12,157 bases of DNA from an uncultured Candidatus Poseidoniales archaeon (GTDB lineage: Archaea; Thermoplasmatota; Poseidoniia; Poseidoniales; CAYMED01), in assembly GCA_964389655.1 (NCBI GenBank), contig CAYMED010000024.1:6019-18175 (forward strand), read 5' to 3'. The first letter of the stretch is position 1, and the number at the start of each line of letters is the position of its first letter. A program made the position numbers and the translations under genes. Under the pieces are notes generated by a model. The model saw nothing but the letters and a program-made list of their open reading frames with translations, was not told the origin of the DNA and searched no databases. Below are positions 21 to 9,628 of this stretch, piece after piece.

Positions 21-818
21 ATGCTTCCTGAACACCCAGGGGGGCTTTTGTCTTGGATATGTTCGAATGAATTTGGAACTAGACATGCCACTTTACTAGA
101 TCCCGCTGACCAATCAGCAGAAGATGCTGCAGCCAAGGCTTTGGCTGCAGTTGAAGGCGGTAGTAAGTTGATTTTAGTGGGGGGCTCAACAAATACTCCA
201 GAAAATAAAGTACATGATACAGTTGTTGGGATTCAAGAAGCTCTAGAATTGCGTGTTTGGGCAGCTTCACAAGATTCTACCGTGGATGAAGAAGATTGGA
301 GAATACCAGTAATTCTCTTTCCCGGGGGCGCCCATGCTCTTTCTTCATCTGCAGACGCAATTTTATTCATGATGTTGATGAATAGCATCGATCCAAGATT
401 TTTAGTTGAAGAACAGGTAAAAGGTGCCACCTGGCTCCACGAAGCAGGAGTAGAAATGCTTCCAACCGCATATCTGATTTGCGAACCTGGTGGGAAAGCG
501 GGAGAAGTAGGACAAGCGATTTTGCTCAATTCACCAAAGGACATCCGCGCTTATTCGTTATGTGCTAAGGGATATGGAATGAAAATTCTCTATCTTGAAG
601 CAGGTAGTGGTGCACCCCTTCCTCTCGATTCAGAGATGATTAAATCCGCAGAGGGAGAGTGCCTATTTGTTGGTGGAGGAATTAAAACTGCTGAACATGC
701 CATTTTAGCGAAAGAAGCCGGCGCCTCATGGATAGTTACAGGAACTATTGTCGAAGAACAAGAAGATCTAGATATAATTCGTTTAACAATTGAACAACTA
801 GTATCAGCGTTGAACTAA
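21..818 (+). CDS. Geranylgeranylglyceryl phosphate synthase (GGGPS/PcrB family, group II-like)
   Basis: Family motifs LLDP, LVGGST, PVILFPG, ADAILFMMLMNS, AYLICEPGG, LYLEAGSGA, VGGGI and GASWIVTGT occur in the expected TIM-barrel order. The stop overlaps the convergent gene's stop by 4 nt. Confidence 0.93.
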   Translation: MLPEHPGGLLSWICSNEFGTRHATLLDPADQSAEDAAAKALAAVEGGSKLILVGGSTNTPENKVHDTVVGIQEALELRVWAASQDSTVDEEDWRIPVILFPGGAHALSSSADAILFMMLMNSIDPRFLVEEQVKGATWLHEAGVEMLPTAYLICEPGGKAGEVGQAILLNSPKDIRAYSLCAKGYGMKILYLEAGSGAPLPLDSEMIKSAEGECLFVGGGIKTAEHAILAKEAGASWIVTGTIVEEQEDLDIIRLTIEQLVSALN

Positions 819-2077
819 TCATCATCCTCGTAAACTACAGGATCCCCACTACCACCGGGAGCATTTGGTCTAGTATCAGGCTCATCTCCTTGTGGTAAAG
901 ATTCAACACTCTTTTCGAGATCTATTTCATCCCCTCCTGCTAAAGTATGCATATCATCTAAAGAAGGCGCCTCGATAACTCTCTTCTTAGGGCCTTCTTC
1001 GACGATACGAGCCCGCGTATCTTCTCTAGCGGAATGATCTCTTACCAACCCGAGAGAATCTTGGAACACTCTACCAACAACCTCTCTCGTCTTTTCACTA
1101 CGTCTAGCCGCATCAAGCTCCAACATCGCCCTTTCACGCTGACTCTCTACTTCCTTTAGTTCTGAAGTTCTATCTTGCAATGCCGCTTCAAGGTCAGTGA
1201 TGGTCAGATGCATTTGTTGCACTCTTTCATCTCTTTCAAAGACATCATTATGCAAACGTCTTTCGCGCCTTCTCAAAGCCTCATATTCACGATTCCTTTC
1301 TAACAATCGCCTCTTTAATTCTTCAATTTGTTCGACCAAGTAATCATGTTCTGCACTAACAGATCTCGGGCCAGTCATGACTCTCTCTAACTGTTCTTCC
1401 AATTCACCCAACCGCCTATCGCGCTGATCTAACAATCCTCTCAATCTATCAGCAATCTCTCGCAATCTTTGCCGTTCTTCTTCCAAAGCCTCTCTTGCTG
1501 CAATTTCTGCAGCCAGATCCTCTTCTCGTTGGTCCAATTGTCCTTTTAAACCTCTGACTTCATCAGCAGTAATCGATGTCAAACCCGCCTGGGCCGCCTT
1601 ATCTAGAGCAGAAACCAATTCATCCATCTTTGCTTCCAATTCAGCAACAACATCAGCTTGTTCTATTGTTAATTCACGCAGTTGAGCATTTTCAGCCTTC
1701 ATCGCTTCTCTTTCTTCAGCAGTCATCGATGCCGCCAATGCTTCCAATTCAGAACGGGCATCCTCCAACATCCGCTCAAGATGAACTACCCTCGCATCTT
1801 TTTCTTGCAACATCTGTTCAGCTTCAGAAAGCCTTGCTATTTCTGGAGCAACCCCATCTTCTCTTTCAGCTAAATCTAGCTCTACTACGCGCAACTTTTG
1901 CTTCGCATCCGCCAACTCTTTGTTTCTTTCACTCAATTCTTCCCAAGCGATCAAAACTTCGTCAACCAATTGCTCAGTGGGATATGCTTTCAACATCCCT
2001 TCTAAAGCGGCACGGTCACTATTATCGATCAACCCAGAAGCCCCATCTGAACCGGGTGTCGCAGCCTCTACAGACAT
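815..2077 (-). CDS. Long coiled-coil protein of unknown function (short head, ~300-residue E/R/L/A-rich rod, acidic Pro/Gly tail ending VVYEDDD)
   Basis: The ORF is open from TTG 2098. ATG 2077 is preferred because a TATA-position motif lies at 2108-2113; ATG 2092 is an alternative. It shows heptad-like periodicity, with no Walker A/B, signal peptide or TM segment. Confidence 0.85.
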   Translation of the reverse strand: MSVEAATPGSDGASGLIDNSDRAALEGMLKAYPTEQLVDEVLIAWEELSERNKELADAKQKLRVVELDLAEREDGVAPEIARLSEAEQMLQEKDARVVHLERMLEDARSELEALAASMTAEEREAMKAENAQLRELTIEQADVVAELEAKMDELVSALDKAAQAGLTSITADEVRGLKGQLDQREEDLAAEIAAREALEEERQRLREIADRLRGLLDQRDRRLGELEEQLERVMTGPRSVSAEHDYLVEQIEELKRRLLERNREYEALRRRERRLHNDVFERDERVQQMHLTITDLEAALQDRTSELKEVESQRERAMLELDAARRSEKTREVVGRVFQDSLGLVRDHSAREDTRARIVEEGPKKRVIEAPSLDDMHTLAGGDEIDLEKSVESLPQGDEPDTRPNAPGGSGDPVVYEDDD

Positions 2078-2149
2078 GATATCGCGTTGCATCGGCAACA
2101 GTCCATTCTTGAACCTTCACCTTGTAATCGGCAGATAATGGCCGTTCAT

Positions 2150-2172: not shown

Positions 2173-3177
2173 TCAGTTAATTGCCGTGTATTGCTCATCA
2201 GGCATTGCGTTTGCCAACTTCAATGCTCCAGAGGCAACACTCACGATTGGATTGTCCACACACCATACTCTAACATCACCAATATCAGCAAGTTGATCTG
2301 CAACCATTTCTGCAACTCCGCCAATCATTGAACCCCCTCCACTGAGGATGATATTATTGCGGAATTGTGGTTGGTATTCAGGGTCGGCTGTAGCGATAAT
2401 TGACTTGATGGCCCCAACAACATGTGGAACCAAAGCCTCGCACCCTTGTCGAATGATATCTCCAATATCAACGATATTCTTCTTACCTTCAACCGACAAT
2501 TCAACCATACACTCTTCGTCATCTGTACCGACATAAGAGAATTCTTCCTTCCATGAACGAACCATGTCTTTTGTTAACTGAGCACCCGTGTATTTCTTTT
2601 CAATAAGGTCCATTATTTGAAGATCCAACCAATCTCCCGCTTCAGCTACTGTGAACTCATCATCTTCGTTAGGGAAGGTTCCGTAAAGTCTAGCGACATC
2701 TGTAGTTCCTGCGCCGATATCGACAACGATTGAACCCATGTATTGATCATGATCAAAACCGGTAGCAAAAGGCTCGCTAACTACCATAATTGCGTTGACT
2801 TGACCACGTAGAGTAGCAACCAAATTCGACTTGTCAGTGAATGTGATGTGCGAAGGGCTGCAAATAACACCAAACACCTCATCGTATTCTTCTGGGTCTG
2901 CTACCTCAATTAAGTGGGATACGAATGCCTTAGCAGCAGCCAAATTCGCCTCATCATCCTGAGCAACCCCCGCAGCCATTGGACGGTAGATATTACAAGC
3001 CAATTTCTTAGCAAGCGCTTCATCTCCAAACAGCACATCCCTACCTAGCATATTTCGAGCAACAGGGTCTTTCGGTTTACCGACGACGGTTTCGATAGTT
3101 TGCAAAGCACCAGCACTCGACGCAATCGTCGATTGGTAGGTTCCAAGGTCAATTCCGATGTAGAGTCTTTCGCCCAT
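2173..3177 (-). CDS. Actin-like ATPase of the MreB/MamK superfamily, MamK-like
   Basis: All five actin-fold motifs are present: GIDLGT (phosphate 1), VVSEPFA (connect 1, catalytic Glu), VDIGAGTTD (phosphate 2), ILSGGGSMIGG (adenosine) and SGALKLA (connect 2). MamK-type strings include VVGxPKD, LGR..GDEA, KExFSxVG, CEALxP and PEYQ. SD-like GAGGA (3188-3184) favours ATG 3177; ATG 3183 is an alternative. Confidence 0.9.
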   Translation of the reverse strand: MGERLYIGIDLGTYQSTIASSAGALQTIETVVGKPKDPVARNMLGRDVLFGDEALAKKLACNIYRPMAAGVAQDDEANLAAAKAFVSHLIEVADPEEYDEVFGVICSPSHITFTDKSNLVATLRGQVNAIMVVSEPFATGFDHDQYMGSIVVDIGAGTTDVARLYGTFPNEDDEFTVAEAGDWLDLQIMDLIEKKYTGAQLTKDMVRSWKEEFSYVGTDDEECMVELSVEGKKNIVDIGDIIRQGCEALVPHVVGAIKSIIATADPEYQPQFRNNIILSGGGSMIGGVAEMVADQLADIGDVRVWCVDNPIVSVASGALKLANAMPDEQYTAIN

Positions 3178-3255
3178 TATCATTCCTCATACGCCGCGGC
3201 GTGGTGGTGCCACACCTGAAGTGGTCTTCAAGGTTGAGTCGCGGCAATCATTCCG

Positions 3256-3290
3256 AATAAACCAAATCTTCAACCAATTCTTGGTTTATT
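3256..3290 (-). terminator. 10-bp inverted repeat straddling the protease stop codon
   Basis: AATAAACCAA (3256-3265) and TTGGTTTATT (3281-3290) with a 15-nt spacer. Confidence 0.35.
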
Positions 3291-6149
3291 TCGATTAATT
3301 ATTGCAACCACTGCGAGGCATATCAGTGCACTGACAAATAAGAAGCCAGGAACCCCCTCTTCTTCCTTCTCTTTCTCCTTTGTTTCCATTGGAGCGGATA
3401 GGGGGTCTGTGCCATTCGCAATCTCCCCTCCATCATTCACCCCATCCCCATCGGTATCTTCTACCAATGGTTCAGTTTCATGATTAAATATTTCATCTCC
3501 ATCACTTAACCCATCACCATCAGAATCAGGATTTTTTGGATTTGTCCCCCTTTCTAACTCAAGAAGATCTAAAACCCCATCGCCATCATCATCTATGTCT
3601 AAATAATCACACAACCCATCTTCATCCAAATCCATTGGTAAATCATTACCAATGAATGGATCGCTTGAACATTGTATTTCTTCAGCGTCGCTAAACCCGT
3701 CACCATCACTATCGATTATTTGATCACAACCATCCGGCACTCCATCTTCATCAATATCAATCAAATCATCAAAGTCCGCACATTGATCAGAATTATCTCC
3801 AACACCATCACCATCGGAATCATTCGCTTCTGTAGCATCATCTGGAAAATCATCATCTTCATCACCTACTCCATCTCCATCACGATCCACTATCGAGTCA
3901 CAAGCATCAGGAATATTATCTCCATCAATATCAATCAAATCATCAAAGCCCGCACATTGATCAGAATTGTCCCCAACCCTATCCCCATCAGTATCTACAG
4001 ATTCTGTGGGGTCGTCAGGAAATGCATCGACCCCATCCTCCACTCCATCTCCATCACGATCAACAACATCTTCTCTAATTTCATCTACCCCCTTGATTGC
4101 AAGGCCAAAACCAATTCTATCACCGTTCAAACCAAGCATATCAGAGTGATTTCCAATATTTACAAATCTAGCATTTACACTCACATTTACCCATTCAGCC
4201 CCAGATAGCTCAGTCGCGGGGATTTTTATTCCAACAGTAGTTTCATTTCGAGGCGACAATTCCACTCTTTCTTCAAACAATGTAGAATATCCATCCTCTT
4301 CGAAAACGTCCCCATATGCGAATTTTCCTGCCGGGGTCTCAATTATCAACTCCAAATCATCGATTTGTGCAGGCTCAGGCCTTGGCGACCATGAAAGACG
4401 AACATCAAGATCGCCCCCGCTCCTATTCAATGTCCAAGAGGCGGATTCACCACTCGCAAGAAAGGGGCCCACCGCCCCATCTCCATTCCACGGAACCGAC
4501 TCAACCCGCTGCAATGGCCTTTCATCAACAGTGGAATCATATGCTCTATTCTGCACCAATTCTTGCCAATTATCCATGGCAAATGAGTCCCATAACCAAA
4601 TATCATTATTCGTTGGATCTTCTAAGTCAATTAGCCTAGATAGATTTGCGCGCCCCCAACCTTGAACATTATCGGGAGCCGCCCCCGTCTCCCCCCGTTC
4701 ATGCTGTAATCCAGGTATCGGCTCGGCGGCTAAAGCAATGACAGCCTTCAGCATTGGCCCACTCGGGGTATGGTTTTCCTGCCCAATCCAACCTTCCTCA
4801 ATCATCTGTTGAATTATGGCCGTGAAGGATGCCGCAGCAGGCGTGGCCATCGAAGAACCAGTACTTGTTCTTGTACCATTATTCCATGACTCATGTTCAT
4901 TATCAGCGGCAGCAGAAACAATCGTAACACCCGGCGCAGCGATGTGAATGCCTCTACGCCCGTCATGCGTTTCACCAACCGACGAAAATTCCCAGATACC
5001 ATGAGCCTCAGTTTTGGTAGTTACACTGACCGCTACTACCGAACGCGCATTAGCCGGCTCCATAATTTGCCCGCGGTTATTTCCCGGTGCAATAAACGCC
5101 ACCGACCATGGCACTTCATTTGACCACGCATCGAAATCATATGTTCGAGCAGTATATTCAACCGTATCATCACCCCATGAATTGGAGTGAATTACAGCGC
5201 CATTCCGTAATGCTTCCCAAAGCAACCAATCCACATCTGGAGGCACCCACCCCTCATCATTTACTATGTCTTGAACTACTAGTCTTGAAGCATGACTCAA
5301 AGAAGTCCCCTCTATTGCTGAAGTTGCATTATCAAACCAACAACCCAGAGTTCCTCCGATATGCGTTCCGTGCCCTCCATCTTGATGAGACAGAGTGTCC
5401 CAACCATCTAGAGTTTCATTCAACGATATGATTTTCCTATGTTCTTGTCCAGGAACCCCTGTAATATTCGCCCCATCACCCCCCTGTCTGAAACAAGCAT
5501 GATCACGATCAAGCCCAGAATCAGCAAAAGCAACGATAACTCCAGAACCGTTCAAACCCAGACCCCAAATTTCTCTAGAATCACTAATACCAGAAGTCAT
5601 CAATCCAGCAGCGATGTCATTTCTTGCTGAAGTTTTTAGAACAGGCTCAATCCAAAGAATTCCAGGAATATGTAAAACCTGCTCAAGTGATTGACCCCCC
5701 CATTCGACTACGATTCTAGCAGGCATCGCAGAACCACTTTGCGGCATGGATTCCAATTCTATGGTAAATCCAAACCGCTCTAGTTCTGTAAGAACGAAAG
5801 AAACCCCTTCGAATGGGAGCCTTGGCTCCAATAAAATTCGCGTTTCGGCTTCAGGATATGCTTTTTCTAACCCCGGCCGCCATTCCGCCGGCCCCGCCTC
5901 ATCTCCAGTAGTACCCCAAGCTAATACGGTATATGGCCCCAACTGCCGCAAAGGAGTCAACCCCTTCTCTCGCAACTTATTCCAATCATCCGCTGACCAA
6001 ATTTCATCCGAGGTAACGATTACTTCTCTAGCATTTAGGCCAATGTTTTCTGTAAAGTCAGCAGCATTTCCAATAGGCACCAGCAGAATCAGCAACGCCA
6101 CCGCGAAGGCCTTGGAAGAACTAAGCACAATCCTATCCGAAGCACCCAT
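3270..6149 (-). CDS. Secreted S8 subtilisin-like serine protease (KP-43-like) with TSP type-3 Ca-binding repeats and a PGF-CTERM anchor
   Basis: N-terminal signal peptide (KAFAVALLILLVPIGNA) and prodomain. Catalytic Asp (FADSGLD), His (GHGTHIGG), oxyanion Asn (APGN) and Ser (TGSSMATP). KP-43-type HSNSWG, PSGPMLKA and QGWGR strings, many DxDxDG repeats, and C-terminal VPGF + TM helix + basic tail. GTG 6152 is an alternative start. Confidence 0.93.
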   Translation of the reverse strand: MGASDRIVLSSSKAFAVALLILLVPIGNAADFTENIGLNAREVIVTSDEIWSADDWNKLREKGLTPLRQLGPYTVLAWGTTGDEAGPAEWRPGLEKAYPEAETRILLEPRLPFEGVSFVLTELERFGFTIELESMPQSGSAMPARIVVEWGGQSLEQVLHIPGILWIEPVLKTSARNDIAAGLMTSGISDSREIWGLGLNGSGVIVAFADSGLDRDHACFRQGGDGANITGVPGQEHRKIISLNETLDGWDTLSHQDGGHGTHIGGTLGCWFDNATSAIEGTSLSHASRLVVQDIVNDEGWVPPDVDWLLWEALRNGAVIHSNSWGDDTVEYTARTYDFDAWSNEVPWSVAFIAPGNNRGQIMEPANARSVVAVSVTTKTEAHGIWEFSSVGETHDGRRGIHIAAPGVTIVSAAADNEHESWNNGTRTSTGSSMATPAAASFTAIIQQMIEEGWIGQENHTPSGPMLKAVIALAAEPIPGLQHERGETGAAPDNVQGWGRANLSRLIDLEDPTNNDIWLWDSFAMDNWQELVQNRAYDSTVDERPLQRVESVPWNGDGAVGPFLASGESASWTLNRSGGDLDVRLSWSPRPEPAQIDDLELIIETPAGKFAYGDVFEEDGYSTLFEERVELSPRNETTVGIKIPATELSGAEWVNVSVNARFVNIGNHSDMLGLNGDRIGFGLAIKGVDEIREDVVDRDGDGVEDGVDAFPDDPTESVDTDGDRVGDNSDQCAGFDDLIDIDGDNIPDACDSIVDRDGDGVGDEDDDFPDDATEANDSDGDGVGDNSDQCADFDDLIDIDEDGVPDGCDQIIDSDGDGFSDAEEIQCSSDPFIGNDLPMDLDEDGLCDYLDIDDDGDGVLDLLELERGTNPKNPDSDGDGLSDGDEIFNHETEPLVEDTDGDGVNDGGEIANGTDPLSAPMETKEKEKEEEGVPGFLFVSALICLAVVAIINRNKPRIG
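3717..4064 (-). repeat. Tandem 174-nt (58-aa) duplication within the TSP3 region of the protease
   Basis: Units are 3891-4064 and 3717-3890. The string catcaatatcaatcaaatcatcaaag occurs at 3749 and 3923 (offset 174). Both units encode VDRDGDGV...GDNSDQCAxFDDLIDID...PDxCD. Confidence 0.9.
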
Positions 6150-6174
6150 CACACGTCAACGCATCGCCAATACG

Positions 6175-8929: not shown

Positions 8930-9628
8930 ATGAGCCGTGTGGGAGAGGTGGATGACCCTGATGCACCCACCGTTCTGATTGTCGACAATAATCAAATGAC
9001 ACACATGAGGCTTAAACAAATATTTACTCAACGCGACTTCAACATCATCGAATGTACTGATGGGGATAAAGCGGTTGACGAATATATCCGACATGAACCC
9101 GAATTAGTCATGCTTTCTCTCGATATTCCCACTTTAGACGGACATGTTACAGCACTGGAGATGAGGGAACACGGGGGGGACTGCCGCATCGTATTTCTAG
9201 CGCCCCGTAGATTGAGAGGTTTGGCAGAGAACGCGACCCATTCAGCTGGAGCAGTAGCATGGTTGGAAAAACCAGTCACGGACGCGTCATTAGGGGAGAA
9301 ATGGCAGGATATCTTAGGCCCAATACCAGATGCCCCAGGTCTGGATGATCTAGATGAGTTACATCCGATGAAGGAAGAAGATGTGATTGAAGTATCAATT
9401 GAAGAAGACGGGACCCCAAACTTGAATCTCCCATCCCTTCCATTACCAGACCTTCCAATCCAAATACCGGAAGAAGAACAGGAAATCCCTCTAAAGTTGC
9501 CCATTAACCCTGTGGCTGAAAAGAAGAAGAAAAAGAAAAGCAAACTGTGGTGGCTACCAGTTTTGACCATAGTTATTCTAATTGCATGGCAAGTAAATGC
9601 CACATATACATACATCCAACTCACTTGA
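8930..9628 (+). CDS. Receiver (CheY-like) domain protein, apparently aspartate-less, with Pro/acidic linker and C-terminal membrane anchor
   Basis: REC fold motifs VLIVD, DGDKA, PELVML.LDIPTLDG, IVFL and AGAVAWLEKPV. The C-terminus is KKKKKKSK followed by hydrophobic LWWLPVLTIVILIAW. Confidence 0.82.
   Translation: MSRVGEVDDPDAPTVLIVDNNQMTHMRLKQIFTQRDFNIIECTDGDKAVDEYIRHEPELVMLSLDIPTLDGHVTALEMREHGGDCRIVFLAPRRLRGLAENATHSAGAVAWLEKPVTDASLGEKWQDILGPIPDAPGLDDLDELHPMKEEDVIEVSIEEDGTPNLNLPSLPLPDLPIQIPEEEQEIPLKLPINPVAEKKKKKKSKLWWLPVLTIVILIAWQVNATYTYIQLT

What the first reader, a model, noticed from the sequence alone, without database searches (positions are those of the whole stretch)
2173..3183. Actin homologue is closer to magnetosome MamK than to MreB, in an archaeon with no magnetosome genes nearby
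Compared with the Magnetospirillum MamK sequence as I remember it, matches run collinearly along the whole protein, beyond the universal actin motifs: RLxxGIDLGT, SSxG, VVGxPKD, LGR..GDEA, VVSEPF, VDIGAGTTD, LxGTxPxxxD, KExFSxVG, CEALxP, PEYQ...NI..GGGS, GDxxVxCVxxP and GALxLAxxxP. The catalytic Glu is retained and there is no N-terminal amphipathic membrane helix. Inference: a cytoplasmic, dynamic MamK-type filament, relevant to the origin of MamK and to inter-domain transfer of actins.
Basis: partly seen in the sequence, partly recalled or inferred. Interest (0 to 1): 0.8.

Follow-up and report, generated by a model that had tools for sequence, protein, structure and literature searches.

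The report
MamK-like actin of ocean archaea
Marine Group II archaea, abundant uncultured ocean microbes, carry two very conserved copies of an actin related to the bacterial magnetosome filament protein MamK, each beside its own lineage-specific partner gene; they have no magnetosomes, so this is probably an unstudied internal skeleton and not evidence that MamK itself came from or went to archaea.

Summary
Observation confirmed. ORF 2173-3183(-) scores 226 bits against MamK, 138 against BeeR and 47 against MreB; its model fits the MamK filament subunit at TM 0.93. The catalytic Glu (E137) is kept. It is MamK-like, not magnetosome MamK: it falls below the NCBIfam cut-off (339/400), its cross-strand loop is one residue shorter, and no magnetochrome was found in 201 Poseidoniales genomes. 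It is paralog A of a two-copy family found in 194 of 285 Poseidoniales genomes. In trees without long outgroups, both paralogs group with KSB1-type bacterial and other archaeal MamK-like proteins, apart from magnetosome MamK; the root is unresolved, so no direction of transfer is shown. A is followed by a 427-aa coiled coil and B is preceded by a zinc-ribbon protein. One clade of small genomes lacks both actins, the zinc protein and the rear of the coiled coil (one loss event). The window's contig looks mis-binned from another Poseidoniales, but is not chimeric. Best reading: a cytoplasmic ATP-driven filament with a coiled-coil adaptor; cargo unknown. The scan noted the actin plus coiled-coil pair at least seven times on other DNA. 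I found no paper describing it; one key review was unreadable.

The parts
2173..3183 (-). MamK-like actin, Poseidoniales paralog A (336 aa; probable start Met3 at 3177)
   Evidence: 183 of 336 columns nearly invariant among 120 homologues
2773..2775 (-). Catalytic glutamate E137 (MamK E143)
   Evidence: alignment; 119/120 conserved
2950..2961 (-). Loop Q75-E78, equivalent to the MamK cross-strand loop 80-85 but one residue shorter
   Evidence: loop definition from the BeeR preprint 10.1101/2023.11.07.565980; Q75-D77 nearly invariant
2371..2382 (-). PEYQ motif (268-271), directly before the position of the MamK non-polymerising mutation A278D; likely longitudinal filament contact (inference)
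   Evidence: 5ljw title; 120/120 invariant
815..2098 (-). 427-aa acidic all-helical (coiled-coil) protein, 74 nt downstream and co-directional; candidate adaptor
   Evidence: no Pfam hit; four long helices; follows paralog A in 25 of 26 sampled relatives that have A
1223..1372 (-). Nearly invariant Arg-rich segment 243-292 of the coiled-coil protein; missing in genomes that lack the actin
3270..6152 (-). S8 peptidase with TSP3 repeats, upstream and co-directional; conserved neighbour, deleted together with the actin; possibly only a passenger
21..818 (+). Geranylgeranylglyceryl phosphate synthase; convergent flanking archaeal housekeeping gene (synteny marker, not part of the system)

Best explanation
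The protein is a Poseidoniales-specific, MamK-like cytoskeletal actin. It binds and hydrolyses ATP and polymerises head-to-tail into a polar, twisted, probably two-stranded filament that turns over (inferred from fold and conserved residues, about 0.85-0.9). It has no membrane anchor of its own, so it reaches its target through an adaptor, most likely the neighbouring coiled-coil protein, whose invariant Arg-rich segment 243-292 would contact the acidic actin (pI 4.3) or the cargo (inferred, about 0.5). Paralog B and its zinc-ribbon partner, encoded elsewhere, belong to the same system as co-polymer or second filament (inferred from joint loss). The job is to position or partition a large internal structure along the cell, as MamK does with magnetosomes. 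The cargo is not a magnetosome (shown) and is otherwise unidentified; the chromosome is my first guess, with no direct evidence.
For: Fold: AF2 model pLDDT 91.7 matches the MamK filament subunit 5ljv at TM 0.93, rmsd 1.5 A, better than BeeR (0.88) or MreB (0.82-0.83). ATPase motifs and PEYQ are nearly invariant. The actin is more conserved than its housekeeping neighbours: 73% against FtsY 62% and GGGPS 55% in G003. Two paralogs are kept in nearly all carriers. Partner genes are syntenic: coiled coil after A, zinc-ribbon protein before B in 12/12 loci. The zinc protein occurs in exactly the same 28 of 41 genomes as the actin. In actin-less genomes both loci are cleanly reduced: L18a, a 140-168-aa N-terminal remnant, then GGGPS at locus A, and kptA to coaBC without zinc protein or actin at locus B, including in a single-contig genome. 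Precedent: MamK with coiled-coil Mad proteins (PMC12748827).
Against: There is no experiment. The joint loss is one event in one clade (GGGPS tree 91/97) whose genomes are also about 0.5 Mb smaller, so it may be general streamlining; the S8 peptidase was deleted too. In G001 paralog A is followed by another gene and no coiled-coil orthologue was found (83% complete). BeeR shows that a MamK-like subunit can build a different filament (PMC11929497). The loop that sets MamK's strand register is shorter. Nothing identifies the cargo.
Confidence: 0.55

Rival explanations
1. The filament is mainly a cell-shape scaffold: actin A/B plus a crescentin-like coiled coil stiffen or elongate a wall-less cell, and the streamlined clade became small spheres after losing it.
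For: Absent from the small-genome clade. The coiled coil's nearest named feature neighbours are crescentin rod domains (score 0.92, a lead only). FcmB shows that a non-MreB actin can set shape (PMC12645912).
Against: No membrane-binding helix; fold and scores are MamK-like, not MreB-like. Salactin, the nearest studied archaeal family, is described for its dynamic instability (PMC10746226; that its deletion leaves shape unchanged is from my memory of that paper). Cell shapes of these genera are not known to me.
Confidence: 0.22
2. The filament organises the motility or polarity pole (archaellum, chemosensory array or small-GTPase module).
For: Relatives in the same part of the tree have such contexts: inside a che operon in a Thermoplasmatota genome, before an ArlD/E-domain protein in ANME-2, before MglB/MglA-type genes in KSB1.
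Against: In Poseidoniales archaellin does not track the actin: genera g2, g4 and g15 have actin and no archaellin found, g13 has archaellin and no actin.
Confidence: 0.12
3. The actin works alone or only with paralog B, and the coiled-coil gene is an unrelated neighbour truncated by the same deletion.
For: One deletion can explain loss of S8 and the actin; G001 has A without the neighbour.
Against: The remnant is the N-terminal part, which is nearest the actin gene; a single deletion running from S8 through the actin would remove that end first, so loss of the rear needs a separate event. Segment 243-292 is nearly invariant.
Confidence: 0.25
4. It is a true magnetosome MamK, in a magnetotactic archaeon or on a bacterial contaminant or chimeric contig.
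For: Best family hit is MamK; identity of 34-35% to Magnetospirillum MamK overlaps the low end of true orthologues (35-95%, PMC10653835).
Against: No mamI, E, L, O, P, Q, R or F in the bin; magnetochrome 0/201 Poseidoniales against 5/5 magnetotactic controls; neighbours are archaeal and syntenic across the order; tree position apart from verified MamK.
Confidence: 0.01

Closest known systems
MamK of Magnetospirillum (PDB 5jyg, 5ljv, 5ljw; NCBIfam NF040964)
   Same: Fold (TM 0.93), collinear sequence, catalytic Glu, PEYQ region, no membrane helix.
   Different: 34-35% identity, below the family cut-off, cross-strand loop one residue shorter, no mam cluster, archaeal host, two ancient paralogs, partners unrelated by sequence to any Pfam family.
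MamK with coiled-coil Mad20/23/25/26 and Mad28 in Desulfovibrio magneticus RS-1 (PMC12748827)
   Same: Two actin-like proteins plus coiled-coil proteins acting as a positioning network (analogy).
   Different: No magnetosomes here; homology of the coiled coil to Mad proteins was not found by Pfam, NCBIfam or the Atlas and was not tested directly.
BeeR of Verrucomicrobiota (PDB 8r2n; PMC11929497)
   Same: MamK relative in a non-magnetotactic host with unknown function.
   Different: 28% identity, 206 of 530 bits; BeeR has a disordered N-terminal tail, lacks the 80-85 loop and is three-stranded; this protein has no tail and keeps most of the loop.
Salactin (and volactin) of Haloarchaea/Methanotecta (PMC10746226)
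   Same: Archaeal actin whose nearest family is MamK; dynamic filament.
   Different: Only 39 of 400 bits on NF053533; weak Pfam scores of 30 and 38 just over the gathering marks; no acidic N-terminal tail.
Uncharacterised MamK-like actins of KSB1-type bacteria, other Thermoplasmatota and ANME-2
   Same: Nearest relatives by identity and tree.
   Different: KSB1-type forms often carry a 180-890-aa N-terminal extension unrelated to the coiled-coil neighbour; gene contexts differ.
MreB
   Same: Actin fold; databases label these proteins 'rod shape-determining protein'.
   Different: 22-24% identity, 74 of 293 bits, no membrane-targeting element; the label is wrong.

Membership tests
Magnetosome MamK | Actin fold with intact ATPase motifs, best match to MamK | tested here: met
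Magnetosome MamK | Reaches NCBIfam NF040964 cut-off (400 bits) | tested here: not met
   339 bits; paralog B 358. The cut-off is not specific to magnetosomes: non-magnetosome relatives pass it.
Magnetosome MamK | Encoded in or with a magnetosome gene cluster | tested here: not met
   with positive control 129
Magnetosome MamK | Branches with verified magnetosome MamK | tested here: not met
   Best tree places it apart; union with proteobacterial/Nitrospinota-type MamK rejected at p 0.018; union with Nitrospirota/Desulfobacterota MamK not formally rejected at p 0.07
Magnetosome MamK | Cross-strand loop 80-85 that supports the non-staggered double filament | tested here: inconclusive
   Present and conserved but one residue shorter
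Magnetosome MamK | ATP-dependent parallel non-staggered filament that treadmills | not testable with these tools
   Needs biochemistry and cryo-EM
MreB | MreB HMM cut-off and clade | tested here: not met
   74/293 and 61/366 bits; MreB is a distant long branch
MreB | Membrane-binding amphipathic helix or hydrophobic loop | tested here: not met
   No N-terminal extension; the loop at residues 94-101 is acidic
BeeR | NF053558 cut-off, disordered N-terminal tail, loss of loop 80-85 | tested here: not met
   206/530 bits
Salactin | NF053533 cut-off | tested here: not met
   39/400 bits; no salactin sequence was available for the tree
Crenactin, Ta0583, ParM | Sequence similarity to the solved members | tested here: not met
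   None among the 42 PDB hits at E<=0.001 or the top 50 Foldseek rows; not placed in a tree

The most novel reading that the evidence does not exclude
Poseidoniales run a four-component cytomotive system: two diverged MamK-like actins that co-polymerise or divide labour, a coiled-coil adaptor and a zinc-ribbon regulator, used to segregate the chromosome or position another organelle-scale cargo. These actins belong to an old archaeal branch of the MamK superfamily, inherited in Thermoplasmatota and passed to KSB1 bacteria, so magnetosome MamK is one bacterial recruitment from a family that spans both domains.
Probability: 0.25. Interest if true: 0.8.

Novelty: new variant of a known kind. Interest (0 to 1): 0.55.

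Why it matters
Marine Group II archaea are uncultured and their cell biology is nearly blank; the two main genomic surveys do not mention an actin. A duplicated, strongly conserved MamK-like actin with dedicated partners gives a concrete system that can be expressed and imaged. It also shows that 'mamK' hits and 'MreB' labels mislead in metagenomes: the MamK model's cut-off is passed by proteins with no magnetosome context, and these archaeal proteins are annotated as rod-shape proteins. For MamK's origin, it adds a sampled archaeal side of the family that magnetosome-centred trees leave out.

Tried and rejected
Complex prediction of actin A with two copies of coiled-coil residues 200-360 gave no answer (score 0.00); not used as evidence either way. 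Promoter and terminator scan gave nothing above chance and is bacterial in type. Plasmid search found only MreB-level hits, so no plasmid origin is indicated in that collection. Archaellum coupling rejected at genus level. A Rosetta-stone link between the KSB1-type N-terminal extensions and the coiled coil was not found. A second independent loss in genus g14 was rejected: G028 and G899 also lack kptA and coaBC, so the region is unassembled. The single positive in an actin-less genus (G874) sits on a 2-kb contig while its native locus shows the remnant, so it is probably contamination. Rooting failed: MreB and BeeR attach at different places in different runs and can break A+B monophyly. Charles-Orszag 2024 (J Bacteriol review of archaeal actins), Lowe 2016 and Bergeron 2017 were not readable, so prior mention of this family there is not excluded and MamK interface residues could not be checked one by one. 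Paper searches for MamK with Marine Group II, and MreB or actin with Poseidoniales, found no description. No salactin, crenactin or ParM sequence could be put in the tree.

Full report
Observation. The window holds a 336-aa ORF at 2173-3183 on the minus strand. Against solved structures it scores 225.6 bits with Magnetospirillum MamK, 137.5 with BeeR, 46.6 with the best MreB and 34 or less with actins; the MamK alignment covers residues 5-332 with one single-residue gap. NCBIfam gives MamK 339 bits (cut-off 400), BeeR 206 (530), MreB 74 (293) and salactin 39 (400). An AlphaFold model (pLDDT 91.7) fits the MamK filament subunit at TM 0.93 and 1.5 A. E137 matches MamK E143. Only a few residues precede the first strand, so an MreB-type N-terminal helix is absent.

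Host and contig. The closest homologues are named Candidatus Poseidoniales or Poseidoniaceae, and the neighbours are archaeal genes (GGGPS, L18a, prefoldin, FtsY). The order FtsY, prefoldin, L18a, S8 peptidase, actin, coiled coil, GGGPS is kept across the order, so the contig is not chimeric at this gene. It does look mis-binned: 16 of its 24 longer ORFs have a second copy elsewhere in the bin at 36-81% identity, it is a tetranucleotide outlier, the same-genus genome's actin is 77% identical to the copy on contig C4 and 60% to the window's, and the window's FtsY groups with family f3 while C4's groups with the same-genus genome. The window therefore comes from another Poseidoniales organism, and tests on the bin alone do not cover it. 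For that reason I also tested the whole order.

No magnetosomes. Proteins from a verified mam operon find no mamI, E, L, O, P, Q, R or F in the bin, only a generic CDF transporter, a CitMHS transporter and a weak MamA-like hit. The magnetochrome domain is found in 0 of 201 Poseidoniales genomes and in 5 of 5 magnetotactic controls.

Distribution. Poseidoniales carry two paralogs, A (window type) and B, about 45% identical. At least one is found in 194 of 285 genomes: 162/162 in family f3 (probably Poseidoniaceae; inferred, codes are unnamed) and 30/121 in f2 (probably Thalassarchaeaceae), where seven genera give 1/90 and the one positive is likely contamination. It was not found in 8 genomes of the sister order, and was found in 6 of about 189 other Thermoplasmatota. 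MamK-like proteins are also common in bacteria with no mam genes nearby: Acidobacteriota, Rokubacteria, Gemmatimonadota, Planctomycetota, Nitrospirota, Gammaproteobacteria and others, and occur in ANME-2. So 'MamK-like without magnetosomes' is a broad family, not a single odd transfer.

Phylogeny. I labelled magnetosome MamK by gene context and by score against 5ljv. In a 40-sequence tree without long outgroups (LG+C20), A and B form one group (100/98), joined to KSB1-type bacterial proteins (96/94); these, other Thermoplasmatota and ANME-2 are split from all remaining bacterial MamK and MamK-like proteins by a branch of 92/96. Only one KSB1-type locus is named as KSB1; the rest are unnamed relatives. 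AU tests reject A+B with proteobacterial/Nitrospinota-type MamK (p 0.018), do not formally reject A+B with Nitrospirota/Desulfobacterota MamK (p 0.07), and do not reject a Thermoplasmatota-only clade (p 0.24). With MreB or BeeR included, the long branches land in different places and A+B monophyly can break. The root, and so the direction of transfer, is not resolved. Rows left out of the 40-sequence tree were MreB, BeeR, long branches and redundant relatives. Identity agrees with the tree: KSB1-type 40-44%, other Thermoplasmatota 35-43%, verified magnetosome MamK 32-37%, BeeR 28-32%, MreB 22-24%.

Partners. A 427-aa all-helical protein lies 74 nt downstream of A. It has no Pfam family, a nearly invariant Arg-rich segment at 243-292, and a full-length orthologue in 25 of the 26 sampled relatives with A and in none of the 13 without actin. 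In actin-less genomes the locus reads L18a, a 140-168-aa N-terminal remnant, GGGPS. Paralog B is preceded in 12 of 12 loci by a 339-aa zinc-ribbon/TerB-like protein found in exactly the same 28 of 41 genomes as the actins; at that locus the actin-less genomes keep kptA and coaBC but lack both genes. Two unlinked loci were thus emptied together. The actin-less genera form one clade in a GGGPS tree, so this is a single event in genomes that also shrank, which limits its weight.

Mechanism. Shown: fold, conserved ATPase residues, lack of a membrane anchor, duplication, synteny, joint loss. Inferred: ATP-dependent polar filament, since the PEYQ motif beside MamK's polymerisation-blocking site A278 is invariant and the actin is better conserved than FtsY; coupling to a cargo through the coiled coil, by analogy with MamK and Mad proteins (PMC12748827). 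The MamK cross-strand loop (80-85) is one residue shorter here, as in the KSB1-type and Thermoplasmatota proteins, so the non-staggered architecture is not assured. I put a positioning or partitioning filament with a coiled-coil adaptor at 0.55, a shape scaffold at 0.22 and a motility-pole organiser at 0.12; the idea that the coiled coil is only a neighbour (0.25) overlaps these. The cargo is unknown.

What is known. MamK relatives outside magnetotactic bacteria are published (BeeR, PMC11929497), salactin's nearest family is MamK (PMC10746226), and an early tree noted some archaeal proteins on the MamK and ParM branches (PMC2651865). I found no paper on the Poseidoniales family, but could not read the 2024 review of archaeal actins. 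This scan has reported the actin plus coiled-coil pair repeatedly on other DNA; I reached the same reading, including the truncated remnant, before looking. The paralog-B zinc partner and the KSB1 sister relation were not returned by a word search, which does not prove they were unnoted.

Verdict. A real, lineage-wide, MamK-like actin system in Marine Group II archaea; a new variant of a known kind; not a magnetosome protein and not yet informative about where MamK arose. Interest 0.55.

Noticed in passing
G000:C15:57066-59178 (L024:5067-7179): Paralog B with an upstream 339-aa zinc-ribbon/TerB-like/zinc-ribbon protein; same presence pattern as the actins in 41 genomes.
   Followed up: yes
window as a whole (G000:C24) against C4 and C22: The contig duplicates a block of single-copy genes found elsewhere in the bin at about 45-62% identity; probably from another Poseidoniales organism.
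   Followed up: yes
L056:10001-16322: KSB1 genome with two tandem MamK-like actins, the first with a 360-aa N-terminal extension, followed by Roadblock/MglB-type genes and a small GTPase; suggests a polarity role.
   Followed up: partly
P0123-P0137: KSB1-type MamK-like actins fused to a conserved ~90-aa N-terminal helical domain and a long low-complexity linker; undescribed architecture as far as I could see.
   Followed up: partly
L051:5607-12966: Thermoplasmatota genome G134 has a MamK-like actin inside what reads as a chemotaxis operon (CheY, CheB, CheA, CheC, CheD by sequence appearance; not scanned).
   Followed up: no
L061:8001-14373: ANME-2 MamK-like actin followed by a 1752-aa protein with an archaellum ArlD/E domain and coiled coil.
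   Followed up: partly
P0164: 768-aa protein joining an FtsZ (tubulin fold) to a MamK-like actin domain; could be a real fusion or an assembly artefact.
   Followed up: no
L036:6433-7457 (G003:C1): Paralog B is split into two ORFs in a single-contig genome; frameshift or sequencing error not resolved.
   Followed up: no
L148:3210-7522, L150:7774-11194: In actin-less genera an adenylylsulfate-kinase-like and sulfotransferase-like gene cluster sits between L18a and prefoldin (by sequence appearance; not scanned).
   Followed up: no
window 8930-9628 (+): Receiver-domain protein with an acidic Pro-rich linker, a Lys run and a C-terminal membrane segment; conserved beside ftsY.
   Followed up: no
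Context-verified magnetosome MamK proteins fall into two groups not joined in these trees, with non-magnetosome proteins near each; the backbone is unresolved.
   Followed up: partly
G000:C29, C2, C9: Three tubulin/FtsZ-family genes in the bin, one divergent (323-aa frame).
   Followed up: no
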